Virus genome (UHGV): UHGV-0371537
Length of the DNA: 64,000 nucleotides
Reading direction: 5' to 3' (one strand)
Source: a virus
Position numbers and translations under genes: made by a program. Shown here piece after piece: positions 6,185 through 56,733 of the stretch; positions within the stretch are counted from its first letter, which is position 1; the number at the start of each line of letters is the position of its first letter. A model generated the notes under the pieces. The model was not told where the DNA came from and made no database searches. It saw nothing but the letters and a program-made list of their open reading frames with translations.

Positions 6185-6192
6185 TATTTATA
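6185..6192 (-). promoter_or_regulatory. T4-type late promoter (TATAAATA) for gene 5382..6149
   Basis: Exact TATAAATA on minus strand about 35 nt upstream of the start codon. Confidence 0.55.
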
Positions 6193-6733: not shown

Positions 6734-7462
6734 ATGGGTATGAATTATGTTGATCGTGGCGAGAATGTCGTCAAATATTTTACGGACGAAGATAACGAGC
6801 GTGTCATCAGTATCCTTCGTGACTGGATCCCCGCCCGTAAGAAAGCACTGGCCGAAGGAACAAGACTTCCAAAGATCCCCAACTATGTTGCTGTCCAAGT
6901 CCAGCGCATCATCACCAAGATGAGCACCCGCTACAATTATCGTGACTATCCCTTCCGTGAGGACATGGTCTCTGAAGCCGTCGTGAACATCCTTCGTTAC
7001 CTCCACACGTTTGACGTCGGCCATGTGGGCAAGAAAGGCAAAATCAATTTCTTTTCCTGGGTGACCATGTGTGCTGATCGTTCCTTCGCTCGCAAACTGA
7101 ACATTGAAGAAGAACACACTTACATCAAGTTGCGCTCCTTTGAAGAGGCAGGCGGTTTCGCAGGGCTGGCTGATGACCCAGATTTCCAACAAGAGGTCTT
7201 CGTTGATGCTACTGGGATTGGTATGGACTTCCGCGAGCGCATCGGTAACTTCGAAAACAAGAAGGACGCCCAAAGACAGCGGGAACGCGAAAAGGTAGAG
7301 ACCGCCCGAGCCGCTGAATCGAACAAAAAGATAGCGAAAGGCATACTTCAATACATGTCTCAGGGTAAGAATACCCCAACAGCGCAGGCCGAAGACGATT
7401 CAGATCAGGACTTCGGTAATACCCAATTCGATCTGGAAGAAAACGAAGGAGAAACAGAATAA
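6734..7462 (+). CDS. late-transcription sigma factor, T4 gp55-like
   Basis: Region ...IITKMSTRYNYRDYPFREDMVSEAVVNILRYLHTFD resembles the gp55 core from memory; sits immediately before gp47/gp46 homologs. Confidence 0.65.
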   Translation: MGMNYVDRGENVVKYFTDEDNERVISILRDWIPARKKALAEGTRLPKIPNYVAVQVQRIITKMSTRYNYRDYPFREDMVSEAVVNILRYLHTFDVGHVGKKGKINFFSWVTMCADRSFARKLNIEEEHTYIKLRSFEEAGGFAGLADDPDFQQEVFVDATGIGMDFRERIGNFENKKDAQRQREREKVETARAAESNKKIAKGILQYMSQGKNTPTAQAEDDSDQDFGNTQFDLEENEGETE

Positions 7463-11680: not shown

Positions 11681-11713
11681 GGGCACTAAATATCACGTGC
11701 CCTTTATCTTTTA
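11681..11713 (+). terminator. rho-independent terminator
   Basis: GGGCAC-taaatatcac-GTGCCC hairpin followed by TTTATCTTTT. Confidence 0.6.
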
Positions 11714-11772: not shown

Positions 11773-12387
11773 ATGACGATGACAACGTTGAAGGCCATGG
11801 CCTTGTCCGTGACCTTTACCATTGCCAGCGGGAATGTGCACGCTTCCCAAAATACAAGTCAATGTGTTTATGATTTCTCTGAGCAACAACTTAATACGCT
11901 GGCAACTGCCTATCACATAGGCAAGACACAAGATCTTGGTTACACTCTGGCCGCCATATCTTGGCGAGAGAGCCGCGCTGGTGAAGATGTAGTGTCAATG
12001 CGCTATGGACTCAAGGCGGCCAACATGGGAGCCTTTCAGAACAAGGTGAAGACAGTTGGTGATCGCGAAGGTTGTAAGAATCGCAAGTGCTATGCCAATG
12101 TCGCCATAAAGTTGCTGACCGACCAAGAATATGCCGCGCAAGCCGCCCTCGAAGAGATGCAGTTCTGGCTGACCTATCACAAGCAGAATGTACGCAAATC
12201 CCTCTCCTCTTACAATGCTGGCTTCGCCCGTAATCCCGCATCGAACGCTTATGCCGCTGACGTCGTGAAGAAAGCTAAATATCTTCAGAAATGTGTGTCC
12301 TTCAAAGGCCGGACCATCTCCGAGGTAGATCCTCAGGTGATCGCCATGAACAAGCGCACGATAGAGAAACTGAAGAGGACAAGATAA
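11773..12387 (+). CDS. secreted protein with lytic-transglycosylase (SLT)-like motifs
   Basis: N-terminal signal peptide (MTMTTLKAMALSVTFTIASGNVHA); E-S (ISWRESRAGE), G-x-x-Q (MGAFQ) and YNAG (SSYNAGFARNP) in SLT-like order. Confidence 0.4.
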   Translation: MTMTTLKAMALSVTFTIASGNVHASQNTSQCVYDFSEQQLNTLATAYHIGKTQDLGYTLAAISWRESRAGEDVVSMRYGLKAANMGAFQNKVKTVGDREGCKNRKCYANVAIKLLTDQEYAAQAALEEMQFWLTYHKQNVRKSLSSYNAGFARNPASNAYAADVVKKAKYLQKCVSFKGRTISEVDPQVIAMNKRTIEKLKRTR

Positions 12388-16272: not shown

Positions 16273-16876
16273 ATTTCACATACATACTGACTTGTACTTT
16301 CTTACCTTTTTCGTTTTTGACGTCCATCAGCTTGGATGCACCATTCAGTTTCATGACGGTTCCGCGTTCTTTGCCGCCATTCGGTAACTCGTATTCAATA
16401 TCTTCCCCAGGAGATGGCATACCCGCATGAGGTCCCATAACCATGGCGATCTTATAACGAGCCAAGCCGGGGCGACCGCCTTTATACGCATACCAACCAC
16501 CTTCAGTCATTTCTTTCCATTGCTTGTTACCGTCAATGGAGATAAAGGAATTGCCCATACCTGATTTGACATCCAACAAGTCAATATATTTGCCTGATTT
16601 GTTGTACTTGACAGCGGTGTCAGTATCAACCTTGTCAATCATCTGGGCGCTGGCAAACTGTCCATCTTTCAATCCAGATGCTGAGATGATGTCTTTGGCA
16701 TTGGCCAGGATTATCTTGCGACCGTCAGGGGTTTCAAAGGTGGCTTTGTCGCCACTAACACTAACTCGCAAGAAAGTGCCGATATTGTCTTCGGTGGACT
16801 TGCCGATCTTGTCTGACTTGATATGAACAGACATCGGTGGCGCGGCTTCGGTCAAAAAGTCTTGAAAAGTTTTCAT
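16271..16876 (-). CDS. hypothetical protein
   Basis: Isolated minus-strand ORF between convergent terminator and divergent promoter region; GGAG SD. Confidence 0.5.
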   Translation of the reverse strand: MKTFQDFLTEAAPPMSVHIKSDKIGKSTEDNIGTFLRVSVSGDKATFETPDGRKIILANAKDIISASGLKDGQFASAQMIDKVDTDTAVKYNKSGKYIDLLDVKSGMGNSFISIDGNKQWKEMTEGGWYAYKGGRPGLARYKIAMVMGPHAGMPSPGEDIEYELPNGGKERGTVMKLNGASKLMDVKNEKGKKVQVSMYVK

Positions 16877-20473: not shown

Positions 20474-20504
20474 CACGGCAGTTCCTCAAGTAGTTCACTT
20501 TCAC

Positions 20505-20512
20505 TTTAAATA
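20505..20512 (+). promoter_or_regulatory. T4-type late promoter variant (TTTAAATA) upstream of endolysin
   Basis: TAAATA core about 30 nt upstream of ATG 20543. Confidence 0.45.
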
Positions 20513-20542
20513 CCTTCGCATTCATTGCGGAGGTATTTTCTT

Positions 20543-21337
20543 ATGGCCATTCTAAAACTTGGCAACCGTGGCACTGAAGTGAAGGCACTTCAGGATAGCC
20601 TCAACAAAATCGGCTTCACCCTCGTCGCCGACGGCATCTTTGGTAAGGCAACAGAGAACGCTGTCAAGACTGTTCAGGCGGGTGCGGGGCTTGTCATCGA
20701 CGGTATCGTGGGTCCAAAGACCTCCTATGCTATTCGCAACGCTGGAGACGCCCATCAAGATCACCTGACCGAGGCTGACCTTATCGATGCGGCTAATCAG
20801 CTTGGAGTTGATCTCGCCTCTGTAAAGGCGGTCAACCAGGTGGAATCCCGTGGCACTGGCTTCACCAAGTCAGGTAAGATCAAGACATTGTTCGAACGCC
20901 ACATCATGTACAAGAAGCTCATGGCGAAGTTCGGCCAGGCTCGGGCGAATGCTATAGGGCAGATGTACCCGACGTTGGTCAGTCCTTCTGCAGGTGGGTA
21001 CACGGGCGGCGATGCAGAACTGGATCGACTTCATGCGGCCATCAACATCGACGAGGATTGTGCGTACGAGAGTGCCTCATACGGTCTCTTCCAGATCATG
21101 GGCTTCAACTGCCAGGTCTGTGGGTATGCCAATGCCAAGGAGATGTTCAATGACTTCCTGACAGGCGAACGTGCTCATCTGATGGCATTCGTGAAGTTCA
21201 TCAAGGCCGATGCCAAGCTCTGGCAGGCTCTGAAGGACAAGAACTGGGCTGAGTTTGCGCGGCGCTATAATGGTCCGGCGTATGCCAAGAACCAGTACGA
21301 CACGAAGCTCGCTGCTGCATACAAGAGTTTCAGTTAA
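20543..21337 (+). CDS. endolysin: N-terminal peptidoglycan-binding domain + C-terminal muramidase-like domain
   Basis: N-terminus LKLGNRGTEVKALQDSLNKIGF...DGIFGKATENAV (PG_binding_1-like); C-terminus ...YGLFQIMGFN...FARRYNGPAYAKNQYDTKLAAAY (DUF3380-like). Confidence 0.7.
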   Translation: MAILKLGNRGTEVKALQDSLNKIGFTLVADGIFGKATENAVKTVQAGAGLVIDGIVGPKTSYAIRNAGDAHQDHLTEADLIDAANQLGVDLASVKAVNQVESRGTGFTKSGKIKTLFERHIMYKKLMAKFGQARANAIGQMYPTLVSPSAGGYTGGDAELDRLHAAINIDEDCAYESASYGLFQIMGFNCQVCGYANAKEMFNDFLTGERAHLMAFVKFIKADAKLWQALKDKNWAEFARRYNGPAYAKNQYDTKLAAAYKSFS

Positions 21338-29832: not shown

Positions 29833-29840
29833 TATTTATG
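29833..29840 (-). promoter_or_regulatory. possible late promoter variant (CATAAATA) for spike gene
   Basis: TAAATA core about 34 nt upstream of ATG at 29798. Confidence 0.3.
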
Positions 29841-31142: not shown

Positions 31143-31150
31143 TATTTATA
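31143..31150 (-). promoter_or_regulatory. T4-type late promoter TATAAATA
   Basis: Exact TATAAATA on minus strand upstream of start at 31114. Confidence 0.6.
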
Positions 31151-32157: not shown

Positions 32158-32208
32158 TCCGGCGTAAATAGCCCATACACCAATGAAACTTCGTTATGGG
32201 CTATTTAC

Positions 32209-32799
32209 ATGAAATATTGCGGAATCGACTACTCATATGGTTGTCCATCCCTGTGCTTCTGGGATGACAAAGACCCTCTTGATTTTGACCACCTGCGCTT
32301 CTACGCATATTACACTGTGGAGAAGTACTGCTCTCAAATCCGTCAGAACATCCTTATCATGAAACAGCCGAAGTGGGAGACTCCAGAAGAGCGCTTCTAC
32401 AACATCTGTAAATGGGCTGAGGCTGTCCTGTTGACCGAGAAACCGGATGTGATCACTCTTGAGGGGTATGCTATGGGCAACTCCAAGAACTCCAACAACA
32501 TCTGCCAGACAGCAGAGAACACTTCTCTATTGAAGCAAGTTCTGCGTCGCCATAACCTGGAGTTTCAGATTGTGACACCTTCTCATGTTAAGAAGATGTT
32601 TACAGACAAAGGCAACGCCGATAAGATCGCCATGATCGCCCACTTCGAAACCCTGTTCAATGTTAATATGCGCGGTATAATGGATATGTTGGAAGTTAAG
32701 GATCCCAAGCCTATCGATGACCTCGTGGATTCGTTTGCAATCATGTCTTGCGGTTCTTACTTCATTGAGAATAATCCAGACTTCAACAGAGGTGTATGA
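32209..32799 (+). CDS. putative RuvC-like (RNase H-fold) Holliday junction resolvase
   Basis: Acidic residues in RuvC-like order: CGIDYS near N-terminus, ITLEGYAMG, DDLVDSFAIM near C-terminus. Confidence 0.35.
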   Translation: MKYCGIDYSYGCPSLCFWDDKDPLDFDHLRFYAYYTVEKYCSQIRQNILIMKQPKWETPEERFYNICKWAEAVLLTEKPDVITLEGYAMGNSKNSNNICQTAENTSLLKQVLRRHNLEFQIVTPSHVKKMFTDKGNADKIAMIAHFETLFNVNMRGIMDMLEVKDPKPIDDLVDSFAIMSCGSYFIENNPDFNRGV

Positions 32800-33110
32800 T
32801 GGTCGATTACTGGTTGTTGGCGAATTTCTTCACATTCGCTTTGTTGTTGGTGTTTGTACTGATATGGGTGAAGTCATTGTTGACTCTCGTCCATGCGTAC
32901 ATGTATCAGATCAACTTCTATACGTTGTCTCCCCACCGGGACACAAACGTCCGTGCGGATCAACAGGCCGAAGCCATCATTTCATACCAGTTCATTCACA
33001 TTCGCGATAAAATGATCAAGCGAGTTGTGTTTTCTACAGCAGTGTTACTGGCTATCATTATGGTTCGTTTTGTGCTGACAACTGTGGGGGTGTTCCATGC
33101 CGCTGTATGA
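32796..33110 (+). CDS. small membrane protein (two predicted TM segments)
   Basis: Hydrophobic N- and C-terminal segments. Confidence 0.4.
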   Translation: MMVDYWLLANFFTFALLLVFVLIWVKSLLTLVHAYMYQINFYTLSPHRDTNVRADQQAEAIISYQFIHIRDKMIKRVVFSTAVLLAIIMVRFVLTTVGVFHAAV

Positions 33111-33342
33111 TTATCAGTGCGGGGAATGCGGGAATGCGATGACGCTGCGGAAATCAATTGCAGACCGCCATGAACCAGAATCTAACCCTTGCGCTGAGTG
33201 CGGAGGGGAGATTAAAATGGTGGTGGGCGCTCCTAAGATCGTGTCTGGGGTTAAGGGACCACAATCTGCACCGGATGGTTTCAAGGACGTTCTGCGCACG
33301 ATTAAGAAAGGCTCTGGTAAGGGGAACACAATCGATGTCTGA
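33097..33342 (+). CDS. FmdB-family zinc-ribbon protein
   Basis: MPLYDYQCGECG ... CAECGG pattern (CxxC...CxxC). Confidence 0.5.
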   Translation: MPLYDYQCGECGNAMTLRKSIADRHEPESNPCAECGGEIKMVVGAPKIVSGVKGPQSAPDGFKDVLRTIKKGSGKGNTIDV

Positions 33343-33580
33343 TGATAAATCACCCACACAGGTGCTGACTGCAGACTCCTTCTCAGAAGCCGTTCTGCTC
33401 CGCGCCGCCCGTACCAGAGAAACTATCCTTGAGACACTCGTGGCTGTCTGTGAAGAAAACGACATAGATGAAACGAAGGTCAGAAAAATGATCACAGCAC
33501 CTCTACTGTCCCGACTAACAGCAGAGTGCTCCGATGCGCGTCTTATCAAAGACGTTCTGAAGTCGAAGAAATTAGTGTAG
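33335..33580 (+). CDS. hypothetical small protein
   Basis: ATG 33335 overlapping upstream stop. Confidence 0.35.
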   Translation: MSDDKSPTQVLTADSFSEAVLLRAARTRETILETLVAVCEENDIDETKVRKMITAPLLSRLTAECSDARLIKDVLKSKKLV

Positions 33581-34992: not shown

Positions 34993-35933
34993 TTCCCCAT
35001 CACGTCGCGCAAAATGCCGAGCAGATTTGTCTTTTCGGCTGCTGTCAAATTGTCATTTCCCATGATGTCTCGTGAGATACCAACTGAGATGCGCTCGAAG
35101 TCCTGGAGACTGATTCCAGCAAGGTTGTTCACCAATTGGTCCAGTTGTTTGTAAGCCAGGAGAGCCTCTCCTGTGAAGTTCCCTTCCTTCACCTTGCGAT
35201 AAAGCTGTCCGGCTTTGGAGGCCGCAGTTTCCCAGTCACCACTGGCAAGAGCATCAGCAATCCCAAGAGGAAGAAAATCGCTGGCAAGGCTGCGTGTTTC
35301 ATATTCTGTCTCCGATAAGACTTTGTTGTAAGAGAATGTGATGTTGTATTGGTTGAACTGGTCTGTGGCTCCCTTGTCCAGTTCGATTGTACTGAAGTTG
35401 ATCGGATGCGCTTCAACGATGTAGACGCGATGGACAACCTGATCTTCCGTATCCATCTGCTCGATACAGATATCGGTTACGAAATCTTCGTAATAACCCA
35501 TCTTGGTCGTGTACGGATCAAAGATCAGATTCTTCCACTTGTCCATCACAGACTTTTCATAATAATCGTTTGCCAAGAGGAATGTCAGATCCAAGTCCAC
35601 GTTGGACTTGTTGTTCGGCATCTTGATGTGGTTGCCGTTGTTGGTCATTGGAGTCGTGTCGATACCAACCCCTGGCATTCCAGCAACCATACACATCATT
35701 TGCAAGGAACGGGACGTTTGGTTTGTCCCTCCAAAGAAAGCGTTTACAATACGGGCTGTCTGTTTGAACAAATCACCAAACGAAGATCCGGTTGCATATG
35801 CCTTCCCGTCGTTGGCGAGAGTGGCATTGCTGTCGAATATGCCTGGTGGCAGGGGGATGGTGACCCGGAATCGGTTCTTCCGTGATATCCCGCGCTGTAA
35901 TAATTCGGTGATGAAATTGCGATAGTCTTCCAC
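34989..35933 (-). CDS. late structural protein, possibly tail-tube/baseplate associated (gp48/gp54-like)
   Basis: GTG start with AAGTGGAGT SD; minus-strand late orientation; weak resemblance only. Confidence 0.35.
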   Translation of the reverse strand: MEDYRNFITELLQRGISRKNRFRVTIPLPPGIFDSNATLANDGKAYATGSSFGDLFKQTARIVNAFFGGTNQTSRSLQMMCMVAGMPGVGIDTTPMTNNGNHIKMPNNKSNVDLDLTFLLANDYYEKSVMDKWKNLIFDPYTTKMGYYEDFVTDICIEQMDTEDQVVHRVYIVEAHPINFSTIELDKGATDQFNQYNITFSYNKVLSETEYETRSLASDFLPLGIADALASGDWETAASKAGQLYRKVKEGNFTGEALLAYKQLDQLVNNLAGISLQDFERISVGISRDIMGNDNLTAAEKTNLLGILRDVMGK

Positions 35934-35947
35934 GATGAGGACTCCAC

Positions 35948-35955
35948 TTAAATAT
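35948..35955 (+). promoter_or_regulatory. T4-type late promoter variant (TTAAATAT)
   Basis: TAAATA core about 32 nt upstream of ATG 35988. Confidence 0.45.
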
Positions 35956-35987
35956 GATATCTGTTGTTACTTATAAGGAGTTGACAA

Positions 35988-36689
35988 ATGGCAAAGAACA
36001 CAGCTGGTGAAGAAGATCCGTTGCTGTTCCCGGCCGAGATGGACGCCCCCGAGCTGGTCAAGCGTTACATCCGCAAGTACCGTCAACACTTCGGTCCAGA
36101 GGCGAAGCGTAACATTCGTCGTTCCCATACGTGGTTCATGGAGCGTGTGTCCAAAGACGCCAACTTGTCTCCGAACCATATGAAGCAGGCGTTTGCCGAC
36201 CATAAACGCCCGGTACAGGGTGTGAGATATGTGGTGGGGCGTATGTTCTATTTCAAATATGACGCCCTGACCAAGAATGAACTTCCGTACTGGGATATGT
36301 ACCCTCTTGTGTTCTTCTTCAACTTTGCCAAGGGTGATGGTATTACATTCGGGGAGAAGGGTGTAACTTATCTGTGGGGATTGAACATGCATTACTTGCC
36401 ACCGAAGCTCAGGCTGCTGGTGTTCGAAGATCTGATTAAGTTACGTAACGAAAGAGCGTATCGTTCAAAGACGCGCCTGAAACTCACTTGGGCTGCTCTG
36501 AAGCGTTTCGCCAACCACCCATTGTACAATCACTGCGTGAAGTTGTACCGTGCTGACCAGTTCCGTTCACAGTTGTATGAGATCGAACCACAGTACTGGG
36601 AAATCGTTCTCTTCATGCGCACTGCCCGCTTCCAGAAACAGAGTCAGATGTCTGTCTGGAAAGATGCCCGCCGAGTACACAAGAAATAG
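35988..36689 (+). CDS. hypothetical late protein
   Basis: ORF with AAGGAG SD downstream of late-promoter-like element. Confidence 0.45.
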   Translation: MAKNTAGEEDPLLFPAEMDAPELVKRYIRKYRQHFGPEAKRNIRRSHTWFMERVSKDANLSPNHMKQAFADHKRPVQGVRYVVGRMFYFKYDALTKNELPYWDMYPLVFFFNFAKGDGITFGEKGVTYLWGLNMHYLPPKLRLLVFEDLIKLRNERAYRSKTRLKLTWAALKRFANHPLYNHCVKLYRADQFRSQLYEIEPQYWEIVLFMRTARFQKQSQMSVWKDARRVHKK

Positions 36690-45429: not shown

Positions 45430-45458
45430 TTCAATAAAGCAGATCATAGGGTATAATT
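45430..45458 (+). promoter_or_regulatory. sigma70-like promoter TTCAAT-N17-TATAAT inside a palindrome
   Basis: -10 TATAAT (45453-45458) lies in the loop of palindrome AGATCATAG/CTATGATCT (45441-45467). Confidence 0.45.
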
Positions 45459-45490
45459 CTATGATCTGAATGTTAAACCAGGAGCACATC

Positions 45491-54890: not shown

Positions 54891-55859
54891 TTAGAAGCTA
54901 TCACCTTCGGTGTCAAAGCGCCCTTTGTGCAGAGGCTCCAGTTCGATGAACGTCATGTCAACCTGTGTGGACACGATTCCATCGTCCTTGTGAACGGCGT
55001 ATGAACTGTCTGGTGTTTCGTTCACAAACATGTTCGACAGAACGCAGGTAGAAATGCGATGCAGCCATTGGTTACGTTCGCCATTGACCATGAAGGTGAT
55101 GTCAAATGTCGATGGGTGCAGATAGAACGCGCTGGAGTTCTTGTTGTACTTGTACTCTGGGTACATGTGCATCTTGAACAACCGGATGATCTCACGGACC
55201 ATCTTGGCTTCCTTTTGAGAGCGCGGTGTGAATTTAAACGTGAATGGGATCTCACGGTTGCGAACCCCCTGGAAGATCATCTCAACATAGGGGTTGGTCA
55301 TCGTGCCCGTGAACAACTCAAGGGTGTCATGGGCGTTAATGGTCGGTAGGAACGGGATAGACTCCGAAGCGGACTGGATTGCCTTGGTTGCCGCGAATCG
55401 ACCCATCTCCTTTCCGACGTTCAGAGCATCACCCAGCTTGAACTGAGTCATGTCCTGGGCGGCACGTGAAAGGAATTGTGCTCCCATACCAGCCAGTCCC
55501 AGCTCGCTGCCGTTCCAGCCAACACCATAGTTGGTTGTAATAGACTCTGGCATACACAGGACTATGGATTCGTTTGAACGAACGTGACGCGCCCAGGCAT
55601 ACTTGGTGATAGAACCGGACTTGGCTCCATAGACCACAGGAGTGTTCCCAATCGGGTTCTTGATCGGGTTCTCAACAGTCTGGGTAGCCGTGTCACCGTA
55701 AGATGAACCGGAGATGCGGTTGATGTTGAATAGGACATAGTGTCCGAGCGTTTTACCGCCCGTGACGTCCAGGGGATAAGCCAATTGCTTCTGAGCCTGG
55801 GACAATCCCTTCGTGTTCAGAACTTTGATCTTATCGATTGTCTTCTTGAAGTCGGCCAT
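54891..55859 (-). CDS. baseplate/tail-tube associated protein (gp48/gp54-like), putative
   Basis: 322 aa first gene of minus-strand late operon; late-promoter-like element upstream. Confidence 0.4.
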   Translation of the reverse strand: MADFKKTIDKIKVLNTKGLSQAQKQLAYPLDVTGGKTLGHYVLFNINRISGSSYGDTATQTVENPIKNPIGNTPVVYGAKSGSITKYAWARHVRSNESIVLCMPESITTNYGVGWNGSELGLAGMGAQFLSRAAQDMTQFKLGDALNVGKEMGRFAATKAIQSASESIPFLPTINAHDTLELFTGTMTNPYVEMIFQGVRNREIPFTFKFTPRSQKEAKMVREIIRLFKMHMYPEYKYNKNSSAFYLHPSTFDITFMVNGERNQWLHRISTCVLSNMFVNETPDSSYAVHKDDGIVSTQVDMTFIELEPLHKGRFDTEGDSF

Positions 55860-55870
55860 GGTCTCAGCCC

Positions 55871-55878
55871 TTAAATAG
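55871..55878 (+). promoter_or_regulatory. late promoter variant (TTAAATAG), plus strand
   Basis: TAAATA core about 31 nt upstream of ATG 55910. Confidence 0.45.
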
Positions 55879-55892
55879 ATAGAGTGTTATGG

Positions 55893-55900
55893 CTATTTAG
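55893..55900 (-). promoter_or_regulatory. late promoter variant (CTAAATAG), minus strand
   Basis: Reverse complement of CTATTTAG; about 33 nt upstream of start 55859; inverted-repeat partner of the plus-strand element. Confidence 0.45.
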
Positions 55901-55909
55901 GACTAAATT

Positions 55910-56524
55910 ATGAGCAACTATCTTCAGGGGAAATACACCCCGGTTAATCCCAAGAAGTACCAGGGGAATGTGAACAACATCATCTTCCGCTCTTCGCTGG
56001 AGTTGGTGGCTTTCAAGTTCTGTGATATGAACTCCGCGATAGTGAAGTGGTCGTCTGAAGAGACTGTAATCCCTTACGTGTCTCCGGTTGACGGTCGGAC
56101 CCATCGTTACTTCATGGACCTCAAGGTGTGGACACACCGTGAAGGACAGGAAGAACTCCAGGTCACCCTCATTGAGATCAAGCCCAAAGACCAGATTAAG
56201 CAGCCGAAGAAGACTCCGTCTATGAAGGAATCAACCTTCAACAATGCGATGCGAACCTGGCTGGTCAACTCCGCCAAATGGGAAGCCACCCGCGAACTGT
56301 GTGCCAAGAAGAACTGGAAGTTCATTATCTGGACTGAAGAGCATCTTGTCCCAGGCGAAGATCCCGATGTTCGCAAACAGTTCGAACTGAAGTCGAAGAA
56401 GAAACGGGATATGGAGATGGAAGACCGCCGTCGTGCCGAACGCGTCAGATTCTTGAAAGAACAGATGCGGAAGGAGATTCATCCCGCCCCAACGGAACGG
56501 GATGATGGGCTGTTGCTTCCCTAA
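55910..56524 (+). CDS. late protein, possibly head-completion (gp4-like)
   Basis: FRSSLELVAF ... DLKVW ... IEIKPK pattern; recalled resemblance only. Confidence 0.3.
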   Translation: MSNYLQGKYTPVNPKKYQGNVNNIIFRSSLELVAFKFCDMNSAIVKWSSEETVIPYVSPVDGRTHRYFMDLKVWTHREGQEELQVTLIEIKPKDQIKQPKKTPSMKESTFNNAMRTWLVNSAKWEATRELCAKKNWKFIIWTEEHLVPGEDPDVRKQFELKSKKKRDMEMEDRRRAERVRFLKEQMRKEIHPAPTERDDGLLLP

Positions 56525-56733
56525 CTTCTTTTGTGCCCAGGGGCGTAACAGGTATGTCTGTCGCGCCCAATTTGCCAACCATCAGCCCGAGCCAATCTGA
56601 CACACTCACCCCAAGTCTCACCAGTGTACTGTTTGAATCCACATTTGGGGTGATGCTCTTCCCAAGCCCAACTGCATGATTTACAGTCAGAGCATTCACA
56701 ATACAGGTCGATGGTGTAGCCTGAAGTAATCAT
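56521..56733 (-). CDS. small Cys-rich (zinc-ribbon-like) protein
   Basis: 70 aa with CECSDCKSC ... HHPKCG ... C...C. Confidence 0.35.
   Translation of the reverse strand: MITSGYTIDLYCECSDCKSCSWAWEEHHPKCGFKQYTGETWGECVRLARADGWQIGRDRHTCYAPGHKRS

What the first reader, a model, noticed from the sequence alone, without database searches (positions are those of the whole stretch)
55871..55902. Divergent pair of late-promoter elements forming an inverted repeat; late consensus relaxed to a TAAATA core
CTTAAATAG (plus) and CTATTTAG (reverse complement CTAAATAG) lie back to back in the 50-bp gap between divergent genes starting at 55859 and 55910. Each is about 31-33 nt upstream of its start codon. 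Other late-looking genes have a TAAATA core at the same spacing: exact TATAAATA at 31143..31150 and 6185..6192, CATAAATA at 29833..29840, TTAAATAT at 35948..35955, TTTAAATA at 20505..20512. This suggests the gp55-type promoter here tolerates substitutions in the first two positions.
Basis: partly seen in the sequence, partly recalled or inferred. Interest (0 to 1): 0.4.

Follow-up and report, generated by a model that had tools for sequence, protein, structure and literature searches.

The report
Divergent late promoters between gp48 and gp4
The 50-bp gap between a baseplate gene and a head-completion gene of this ViI-like (Ackermannviridae) phage holds two inverted copies of the T4-type late-promoter core TAAATA; this layout is real and non-random, but it is already annotated in a sister phage and in phage T4, so it is ordinary.

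Summary
TAAATAG (55872-55878, + strand) and its perfect inverted copy CTATTTA (55893-55899) lie in the 50-bp gap between gp48 (54891..55859, -) and gp4 (55910..56524, +). They sit 32 and 34 nt from their start codons.

- TAAATA is the most position-enriched hexamer upstream of genes. In the window 10 of 17 copies lie in the upstream zone (p=8e-15). In Dickeya phage LIMEstone1 it is 30 of 54 (p=3e-42).
- The two bases before the core are free, with C slightly preferred.
- The window encodes a gp55-type late sigma factor and a gp33 co-activator.

It is not new:
- The LIMEstone1 GenBank record (HE600015, 2012) annotates both elements, in a gap that differs at 2 of 50 bases, as putative late promoters.
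- T4 has the same inverted pair, TATAAATA-N7-TATTTATA, between genes 4 and 53, annotated in EMBL X15728.
- Relaxed positions -13/-12 are published for Aeh1, KVP40, S-PM2 and RB49.

One correction: the elements are interdigitated, not back to back. Each lies nearer the other gene, and the predicted start sites (55883 +, 55888 -) overlap by 6 bp.

No transcript mapping for this phage family was found, so function remains inferred. Interest is low.

The parts
55872..55877 (+). TAAATA core of the predicted late promoter for gp4 (context CCCTTAAATAGATAG, 55868-55882). It lies 32 nt before the gp4 ATG.
   Evidence: The homologous site in LIMEstone1 (16704..16709, complement) is annotated as a putative late promoter.
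55894..55899 (-). TAAATA core (TATTTA on the + strand; minus-strand context TCCTAAATAGCCATA) of the predicted late promoter for the gp48-gp53 leftward operon. It lies 34 nt before the gp48 ATG.
   Evidence: The LIMEstone1 homologue 16682..16687 is annotated as a putative late promoter. CTATTTAGGACT is conserved 12/12 in Agtrevirus, Limestonevirus, Taipeivirus and Kuttervirus.
55872..55899 (.). The inverted repeat TAAATAG-N14-CTATTTA formed by the two promoter elements.
   Evidence: 7 nt, 100% complementary. (1 found against 0.01 expected).
55883..55888 (.). Predicted initiation zone. The + strand start is A55883 and the - strand start is A55888, so the two transcripts would overlap by 6 bp. 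This is inferred from the T4 rule that the last A of the element is at -6.
   Evidence: The T4 rule is from PMC1524935. In LIMEstone1 the sixth base after the core is A in 14 and G in 7 of 29 sites. There is no experimental mapping.
55899..55902 (+). AGGA, the likely Shine-Dalgarno sequence of gp4. It overlaps the complement of the gp48 promoter element by one base.
   Evidence: Read from the sequence; inference.
55868..55872 (-). AAGGG (minus strand), the likely Shine-Dalgarno sequence of gp48. It abuts the complement of the gp4 promoter element.
   Evidence: Read from the sequence; inference.
54891..55859 (-). gp48, baseplate tail-tube cap. It is the first gene of a leftward late operon (gp48, gp53, a gp27-like gene, tape measure).
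   Evidence: phrog_230, E=8e-114; Pfam T4_tail_cap.
55910..56524 (+). gp4, head completion (head closure) protein.
   Evidence: phrog_218, E=1.5e-57.
6734..7462 (+). gp55-type late sigma factor, the protein expected to read the TAAATA elements.
   Evidence: phrog_234, E=6e-51. The alignment to T4 gp55 keeps pocket residues N13, R57, F86 and T99; Y97 becomes W, H95 becomes F and L54 becomes M.
33335..33580 (+). gp33-type late-transcription co-activator. Its start overlaps the end of an FmdB-type zinc-ribbon gene, 33097..33342.
   Evidence: Pfam PF16805, E=1e-17.
35949..35975 (.). A second divergent late pair with the same geometry. TAAATA (35949-35954, +) lies 33 nt before the gp2 ATG at 35988. 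TATAAGTA (35975->35968, -) lies 34 nt before the gp54 GTG at 35933.
   Evidence: TAAGTA is mildly enriched in the upstream zone of LIMEstone1 (3 of 16, p=0.001).

Best explanation
The two elements are a divergent, interdigitated pair of T4-type late promoters that depend on gp55, gp33 and the sliding clamp.

Late in infection, host core RNA polymerase carrying the phage's gp55 homologue recognises the non-template strand TAAATA as a -10-like element, with no -35 element. From the + strand copy at 55872-55877 it initiates near A55883 and transcribes gp4. From the - strand copy at 55899->55894 it initiates near A55888 and transcribes gp48, gp53 and the downstream baseplate genes. The predicted leaders are about 27 and 29 nt long.

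The inverted repeat is simply the by-product of placing two copies of the same asymmetric element on opposite strands. The complement of each element sits directly 5' of the other gene's Shine-Dalgarno sequence, which is what lets the whole control region fit into 50 bp. Because each element lies in the other promoter's initially transcribed region, the two initiation complexes are probably mutually exclusive on one DNA molecule.

Shown here: the sequence, the positional statistics, the presence of gp55 and gp33, conservation in relatives, and homology of layout with T4.

Inferred: the start sites, gp55 dependence, late timing and mutual exclusivity.
For: - TAAATA is the top positionally enriched hexamer upstream of starts: 10/17 in the window, p=8e-15, and 30/54 in LIMEstone1, p=3e-42. 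Spacing to the start codon is 28-38 nt.
- The genes served are late functions: gp48, gp4, gp5, gp26, gp2, endolysin, a RuvC-like resolvase and virion proteins.
- gp55 and gp33 homologues are in the window. gp45 is present in relatives.
- All 10 window sites have homologues in LIMEstone1, and 9 of them are annotated there as putative late promoters, including both in this gap.
- The T4 gene 4|53 gap reads CAT-N11-TATAAATA-N7-TATTTATA-N13-ATG. Both elements are annotated as late promoters in X15728.
- The gp48|gp4 gap carries a TAAATA/TATTTA pair in Sinorhizobium phage phiM19, Aeromonas phage AS-zj and Vibrio phage CZ01.
- The sixth base after the core is a purine in 21 of 29 LIMEstone1 sites, and is A at both sites here.
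- The gp55 residues that hold flipped bases -9 and -8 in the T4 structure (N13, T99; PMC7892883) are conserved.
- No sigma-70-like promoter or terminator is found in the gap, and there is no Rfam match.
Against: - No transcript 5' ends or in vitro transcription exist for any Ackermannviridae phage in the searchable literature. The CBA120 paper (2011) stated that the late element of the family was unidentified.
- Each element differs from the T4 octamer at both of its first two positions. In T4, A-12 is inserted into a gp55 pocket, so recognition must differ in detail.
- The gp4-side element is TAATTA, a change at T4 position -8, in Kuttervirus, Taipeivirus and Vibrio phage D533. Either that variant works or gp4 is served differently in those phages.
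- The segment just downstream of the core is rich in C and T in this family, not AT-rich as described for T4.
Confidence: 0.85

Rival explanations
1. The inverted repeat functions as an RNA hairpin that masks the ribosome-binding sites of gp4 and gp48 in transcripts that start upstream of TAAATA. Late transcripts start inside the hairpin and are translatable. This is the T4 gene e / soc / 49 / I-TevI paradigm. On this reading the palindrome is selected for pairing, not only for carrying two promoters.
For: - In LIMEstone1 the gp48 and HNH/gp4 leaders rank 2nd and 4th of 29 for predicted unmasking of the ribosome-binding site when the 5' arm is removed. The unpaired fraction rises from 0.22 to 0.67 and from 0.06 to 0.43. 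In the window the figures are 0.24 to 0.67 for gp48 and 0.44 to 0.60 for gp4.
- Clear examples of this design exist elsewhere in the window, at the endolysin site 20507 and the RuvC-like site 32165.
- The mechanism is established in T4 (PMC3014915).
Against: - The hairpin is no more stable than shuffled sequence: z=+0.49 for the + strand RNA and -1.62 for the - strand RNA.
- There is no co-directional upstream gene on either side to supply read-through transcripts, because the genes diverge.
- In Kuttervirus and Taipeivirus the left arm has changed (TAATTAG) with no compensating change in the right arm, so pairing is not conserved.
- The genome-wide effect is modest (Mann-Whitney p=0.015).
Confidence: 0.07
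2. The palindrome is an operator for a dimeric DNA-binding regulator, or the recognition site of the HNH homing endonuclease that sits between this gap and gp4 in related phages. On this reading it is not a pair of promoters.
For: - It is a perfect 7-bp palindrome with a 14-bp spacer.
- An HNH homing endonuclease gene is inserted exactly at the gp4 start in Limestonevirus, Mutine, Det7 and PhiSH19.
Against: - The same hexamer, as a single copy, sits at the same distance before eight other late genes that have no palindrome.
- The palindromic symmetry is not conserved across genera, whereas the gp48-side element is.
- The gap is unchanged in genomes with and without the endonuclease gene. Homing enzymes of this type usually cut within the neighbouring conserved gene (general knowledge, not tested here).
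Confidence: 0.03
3. The elements are weak host sigma-70 -10 boxes or chance AT-rich words in an intergenic region.
For: - TAAATA shares 3 of 6 positions in register with TATAAT.
- Overall TAAATA is not over-represented in the window (17 copies against 13.7 expected).
Against: - The sigma-70 scan finds nothing in the gap.
- TAAATA lacks the invariant T at position 6 of the -10 hexamer.
- The positional enrichment (p=8e-15 and 3e-42) and the conservation from T4 to rhizobiophage exclude chance.
- A separate class of clear TATAAT promoters precedes early genes in the same window.
Confidence: 0.03

Closest known systems
Phage T4 late promoters of genes 4 and 53 (divergent pair; EMBL X15728, NC_000866 77338-77384)
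   Same: - A short gap (47 bp in T4, 50 bp here) lies between gene 4 and a baseplate gene transcribed the other way.
- Two inverted copies of the late element are arranged -> <-, each nearer the opposite gene.
- Each element is 26-34 nt from its start codon, and even TAAATAGATA is shared.
- The phage encodes gp55 and gp33.
   Different: - T4 has the full TATAAATA octamer on both strands. Here the elements read CTTAAATA and CCTAAATA.
- The cores are 7 bp apart in T4, so the predicted starts diverge by 4 bp. They are 16 bp apart here, so the predicted transcripts overlap by 6 bp.
- The partner gene is 53 in T4 and 48 (followed by 53) here.
Annotated late promoters of Dickeya phage LIMEstone1 (HE600015; Adriaenssens et al. 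2012, PMC3296691)
   Same: - Same family and subfamily.
- The homologous gap differs at 2 of 50 bases, and both TAAATA hexamers are annotated as 'minus_10_signal, putative late promoter'.
- The 33 annotated late sites are nearly all TAAATA (three lack the core); the hexamer is the operational core.
   Different: - LIMEstone1 has an HNH homing endonuclease gene (F-LimII) between the gap and gp4, so the + strand promoter drives the endonuclease gene and gp4 together.
- Those annotations are also purely in silico.
CTAAATA-type late promoters of Aeromonas phage Aeh1, and the relaxed -13 position in RB49, KVP40 and S-PM2 (Nolan et al. 2006, PMC1524935; Geiduschek & Kassavetis 2010, PMC2988020)
   Same: The core is kept while positions -13 and -12 depart from TA. 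C at -12 is the commonest base in this family too (14 of 29 sites).
   Different: In Aeh1 the C at -12 is a strong determinant. Here all four bases occur at -12, so the position looks free rather than re-specified.
T4 gene e / soc / 49 / I-TevI leaders, where a late promoter lies inside a hairpin that masks the ribosome-binding site (PMC3014915)
   Same: The late element forms the 5' arm of an inverted repeat, and the 3' arm abuts the Shine-Dalgarno sequence.
   Different: Here the hairpin is weak and there is no upstream co-directional transcription unit. The true equivalents in this window are the endolysin leader (20507) and the RuvC-like leader (32165), not this gap.

Membership tests
T4-type (gp55-dependent) late promoter | A single -10-like TATAAATA-type element with no -35 element | tested here: met
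   The TAAATA core is exact on both strands. No conserved upstream motif is seen: positions -4 to -1 before the core are mixed. The full T4 octamer is not matched, with 2 mismatches in each element, both in the first two positions.
T4-type (gp55-dependent) late promoter | The element is positioned a fixed short distance upstream of late (structural, lysis, packaging) genes, on the coding strand | tested here: met
   Ten of 17 copies lie 28-38 nt before a same-strand start, p=8e-15. The genes served are gp48, gp4, gp5, gp26, gp2, endolysin and virion proteins.
T4-type (gp55-dependent) late promoter | The phage encodes the gp55 late sigma factor, the gp33 co-activator and the gp45 sliding clamp | tested here: met
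   gp55 is at 6734..7462 (phrog_234, E=6e-51). gp33 is at 33335..33580 (PF16805, E=1e-17). gp45 lies outside the 64-kb window but is present in LIMEstone1 (ORF120) and in Ag3 (Orf165).
T4-type (gp55-dependent) late promoter | The gp55 residues that contact the flipped non-template bases are retained | tested here: inconclusive
   N13, R57, F86 and T99 are identical; L54 becomes M, H95 becomes F and Y97 becomes W (against PMC7892883). The three-sequence alignment has only 23% identity. The Y97->W change at the -12 pocket is compatible with looser base choice at -12 but does not prove it.
T4-type (gp55-dependent) late promoter | An AT-rich segment lies immediately downstream of the element (T4; PMC2988020) | tested here: not met
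   In this family the three bases after the core are mostly Y-C-Y. At the two sites here they are GAT and GCC. An A-rich patch appears only around the predicted +1.
T4-type (gp55-dependent) late promoter | Transcripts initiate about 6 nt downstream of the element, late in infection, and depend on gp55 | not testable with these tools
   No RNA data are available, and the literature search for Ackermannviridae transcriptomics returned nothing.
Divergent gene-4 late-promoter module of the T4 superfamily | Gene 4 and a baseplate gene (48 or 53) are transcribed divergently from a gap under 100 bp that holds inverted late elements | tested here: met
   Gap lengths are 50 bp in the window, 47 bp in T4, 49 bp in phiM19, and 69 bp in AS-zj and CZ01, and all of these carry a TAAATA/TATTTA pair. 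Cyanophage S-RIM8 (99 bp) has only the gp4-side copy.
Late-promoter-in-hairpin translational gate (T4 e, soc, 49, I-TevI) | A stable hairpin sequesters the SD or AUG in longer transcripts, and upstream co-directional transcription supplies those transcripts | tested here: not met
   Fold z-scores are +0.49 and -1.62. There are no co-directional upstream genes. The arms do not co-vary across genera.

The most novel reading that the evidence does not exclude
The interdigitated -> <- geometry may be a conserved regulatory device rather than mere compaction.

It has been kept in compact gaps from T4 to Ackermannviridae to rhizobiophage phiM19. Each promoter lies in the other's initially transcribed region, and the predicted start sites are 5 bp apart on opposite strands. 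One DNA copy can therefore fire only one of the two at a time.

Clamp-activated late transcription is orientation-specific. The choice between head-completion (gp4) and baseplate (gp48/53) transcription could then be set by which way the sliding clamp or the replication fork approaches. That would fix the expression ratio of the two assembly pathways.
Probability: 0.12. Interest if true: 0.4.

Novelty: already known. Interest (0 to 1): 0.13.

Why it matters
It matters little beyond annotation. The result confirms that this Agtrevirus-like phage uses the T4 late-transcription logic. It gives a usable rule for marking late promoters in Ackermannviridae genomes: NNTAAATA, 28-38 nt before the start codon. 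The Ag3 paper, which allowed only one mismatch to TATAAATA, names neither element of this pair among the late-gene promoters it highlights; each differs from the octamer at two positions.

The comparative result is a tidy piece of natural history. The gene 4 | baseplate-gene divergent late-promoter gap is conserved across Straboviridae, Ackermannviridae and a rhizobiophage, and occurs in two geometries. It opens no long-standing question.

The family still lacks any experimental map of late start sites. The sites listed here would be the obvious positive controls for such an experiment.

Tried and rejected
- **Sigma-70 promoter and intrinsic terminator scan of 55500-56700.** Nothing was found in the gap.
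- **RNA folding of the gap on both strands, and of the predicted short leaders.** The folds were not distinguishable from shuffles, so the structured-RNA reading was rejected for this locus.
- **Rfam scan of 55600-56200 at E<=1.** No match.
- **Whether the hairpin-gating idea holds genome-wide.** In LIMEstone1 the effect was only modest: p=0.015, with 7 of 29 late sites against 23 of 157 controls showing strong unmasking. It was kept as a side note only.
- **Published experimental late start sites in Ackermannviridae.** None were found.
- **Literature I could not retrieve.** The 'Viunalikevirus' genus paper (PMC4174289) and the T4 genome review (PMC150520) are not held. My recollection that the former reports a CTAAATAcCcc motif is unverified, although the consensus derived here, C-TAAATA-Y-C-Y, agrees with it. 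A text search for CTAAATAC gave only unrelated papers.
- **Core variants.** Single-base variants of TAAATA were counted in the upstream zone of LIMEstone1. Only TAAGTA (3 of 16) and TAATTA (3 of 24) show weak enrichment. This is too few to claim they function.

Full report
**Source of the window.** The window comes from an Ackermannviridae (ViI-like) phage of the Aglimvirinae subfamily. It is 90-93% identical over this region to Enterobacter phage EspM4VN, Salmonella phage SKML-39, Shigella phage Ag3 and Yersinia phage CAU_YEP3. The finding sits between gp48, the baseplate tail-tube cap (54891..55859, minus strand), and gp4, the head completion protein (55910..56524, plus strand). Both identifications rest on PHROG and Pfam matches and on the Ag3 annotation.

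**The observation.** The 50-bp gap reads CAT-ggtctcagcc-CTTAAATAG-atagagtgttatgg-CTATTTAG-gactaaatt-ATG.
- TAAATAG (55872-55878) and CTATTTA (55893-55899) form a perfect 7-nt inverted repeat with 14 nt between the arms.
- The plus-strand core ends 32 nt before the gp4 ATG. The minus-strand core ends 34 nt before the gp48 ATG.
- One correction: the elements are not back to back. The plus-strand element lies nearer gp48 and the minus-strand element nearer gp4, so the two promoters are interdigitated (-> <-).

**Is it more than chance?**
- TAAATA as a word is not over-represented: 17 copies against 13.7 +/- 3.1 in shuffles.
- Its placement is extreme. After two of my own ORF calls were corrected, 10 of the 17 copies lie in the -48..-22 zone of a same-strand start codon.
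- TAAATA is by far the most zone-enriched hexamer among all those seen in that zone (binomial p=8e-15). The next best reaches only 5e-6.
- The same test on 150 kb of Dickeya phage LIMEstone1 gives 30 of 54 copies, p=3e-42.
- The pattern TAAATA-N(0-30)-TATTTA occurs once in the window against 0.01 expected.
- The genes served are late functions: gp48, gp4, gp5, gp26, gp2, the endolysin, a RuvC-like resolvase and virion proteins.

**The consensus.**
- The two bases before the core are not constrained. In the window's 10 sites they are C6/T3/A1 and then T4/A3/C2/G1. In 29 LIMEstone1 sites they are C12/T7/A6/G4 and then C14/A7/T6/G2.
- After the core the pattern is Y-C-Y.
- The sixth base after the core is a purine in 21 of 29 sites. 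This is where T4 late transcripts start, because the octamer spans -13 to -6 (PMC1524935).
- That base is A at both sites here, giving predicted starts at 55883 (+) and 55888 (-). The two transcripts would overlap by 6 bp.

**The machinery.**
- The window encodes a gp55-type late sigma factor (6734..7462, phrog_234, E=6e-51) and a gp33-type co-activator (33335..33580, Pfam PF16805, E=1e-17).
- gp45 lies outside the window but is present in relatives.
- I aligned the window's gp55 to T4 gp55 and compared the residues that hold the flipped bases A-12, A-9 and A-8 in the cryo-EM structure (PMC7892883). N13, R57, F86 and T99 are identical. L54 becomes M, H95 becomes F and Y97 becomes W.
- Retention of the -9 and -8 pockets fits the invariant AAA of the core. 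The aromatic swap at the stacking residue of the -12 pocket is compatible with free base choice there. This step is an inference from a 23%-identity alignment.

**Comparison with relatives.**
- Within Aglimvirinae the gap is invariant except at two positions outside the elements.
- Across genera, the gp48-side block CTATTTAGGACT is kept 12/12 in Agtrevirus, Limestonevirus, Taipeivirus and Kuttervirus.
- The gp4-side element reads TAATTA in Kuttervirus, Taipeivirus and Vibrio phage D533. It reads CTAAATAG in Miltonvirus KNP4. Campanilevirus YC has CTAAGT on both sides.
- The palindrome as such is therefore not what is conserved. This argues against a hairpin or a dimeric operator.
- Beyond the family, T4 itself has CAT-N11-TATAAATA-gataata-TATTTATA-N13-ATG between genes 4 and 53. 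Both elements are annotated as late promoters in the old EMBL entry X15728.
- The gp48|gp4 divergent gap carries a TAAATA/TATTTA pair in Sinorhizobium phage phiM19 (49 bp, interdigitated) and in Aeromonas phage AS-zj and Vibrio phage CZ01 (69 bp, truly back to back). Cyanophage S-RIM8 has only the gp4-side copy.
- The module is old and widespread in the T4 superfamily.

**Prior knowledge.**
- The LIMEstone1 paper reports 33 putative late promoters (PMC3296691).
- Its GenBank record annotates 33 late sites, nearly all TAAATA hexamers. These include both elements of the homologous gap (16682..16687 and the complement of 16704..16709) and nine of the ten homologues of the window's sites.
- Relaxed -13/-12 positions are published for RB49, KVP40 and S-PM2, and CTAAATA for Aeh1.
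- The Ag3 paper allowed one mismatch to TATAAATA and does not name this pair among the late-gene promoters it highlights.
- The CBA120 paper called the family's late element unidentified.
- I found no transcript mapping for the family.

**Rivals.**
- RNA hairpin gate in the manner of T4 gene e. The fold is no better than shuffles (z=+0.49 and -1.62). No co-directional upstream gene exists, and the arms do not co-vary. This design is real elsewhere in the window, however (see the items noticed in passing).
- Operator or homing-endonuclease site. This is not excluded biochemically, but it is unnecessary, because the same hexamer occurs as a single copy before eight other late genes.
- Sigma-70 promoter or chance. 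This is excluded by the scan and by the statistics.

**Verdict.** It is best described as an interdigitated divergent pair of gp55-type late promoters with an NNTAAATA consensus. It is already known at the level of published annotation in a sister genus and in T4, and function is still inferred rather than measured. Interest is low.

Noticed in passing
window 20504-20545 (endolysin leader; gene 20543..21337 +): The late core TAAATA (20507-20512) forms the 5' arm of a 13-bp hairpin, AAATACCTTCGCA/TGCGGAGGTATTT (mfe -18 kcal/mol). The 3' arm covers the GGAGG Shine-Dalgarno sequence of the endolysin gene. This is the same design as the T4 gene e (lysozyme) leader, where read-through transcripts are untranslatable and late transcripts start inside the stem. 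LIMEstone1 annotates the same hairpin as a terminator.
   Followed up: partly
window 32163-32211 (leader of the RuvC-like gene 32209..32799 +): A 14-bp perfect stem, GTAAATAGCCCATA/TATGGGCTATTTAC (mfe -20.9), places TAAATA in the 5' arm and ends directly at the ATG. The predicted unpaired fraction of the ribosome-binding site is 0.06 in long transcripts and 0.62 in transcripts started at the late promoter. The 3' arm also reads as TAAATA on the opposite strand (32202-32207), which would give an antisense start.
   Followed up: partly
L010-L012 (LIMEstone1), e.g. record positions 92918, 121728, 123292, 135156, 147905: Many late sites have the form TAAATAcccc...ggggTATTT, so the C-rich tail of the promoter is an anti-Shine-Dalgarno sequence. 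Genome-wide the predicted unmasking effect is only modestly greater than in controls (p=0.015).
   Followed up: partly
window 35933-35988: A second divergent late pair with the same geometry lies between gp54 and gp2. gp54 starts with GTG at 35933, confirmed against LIMEstone1. The elements are TAAATA (35949-35954, +) and TATAAGTA (35975->35968, -), 33 and 34 nt from their starts.
   Followed up: yes
L005 511-1248; L009 1814-2554 (relatives): An HNH homing endonuclease gene is inserted exactly between this promoter gap and gp4 in Limestonevirus and in some Kuttervirus phages (Mutine, Det7, PhiSH19). It takes over gp4's late promoter and Shine-Dalgarno sequence, and gp4 then overlaps its stop codon. 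The window lacks the insert and so may carry the enzyme's target site.
   Followed up: no
window upstream of 38681, 45470, 48112, 49979 (for example 45435-45469): Early-type promoters (TTCAAT/TTGAAG ... TATAAT) have their -10 box inside or in the loop of GC-rich inverted repeats that look like terminators, for example agatcatagggTATAATtctatgatct. They resemble the 'promoter-early stem-loop' cassettes I recall being described for T4-type phages.
   Followed up: no
window 11681-11712: A terminator-like hairpin, GGGCAC-taaatatcac-GTGCCC, followed by a T-run carries TAAATA in its loop. It lies 80 nt before the regB-like gene 11773..12387. LIMEstone1 annotates the homologue as a late promoter.
   Followed up: no
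window 33097..33342 and 33335..33580: An FmdB-type zinc-ribbon gene overlaps the start of the gp33 co-activator gene by 8 nt, which suggests translational coupling. This recalls the conserved dsbA-gene 33 overlap noted for T4-related phages (PMC2988020).
   Followed up: no
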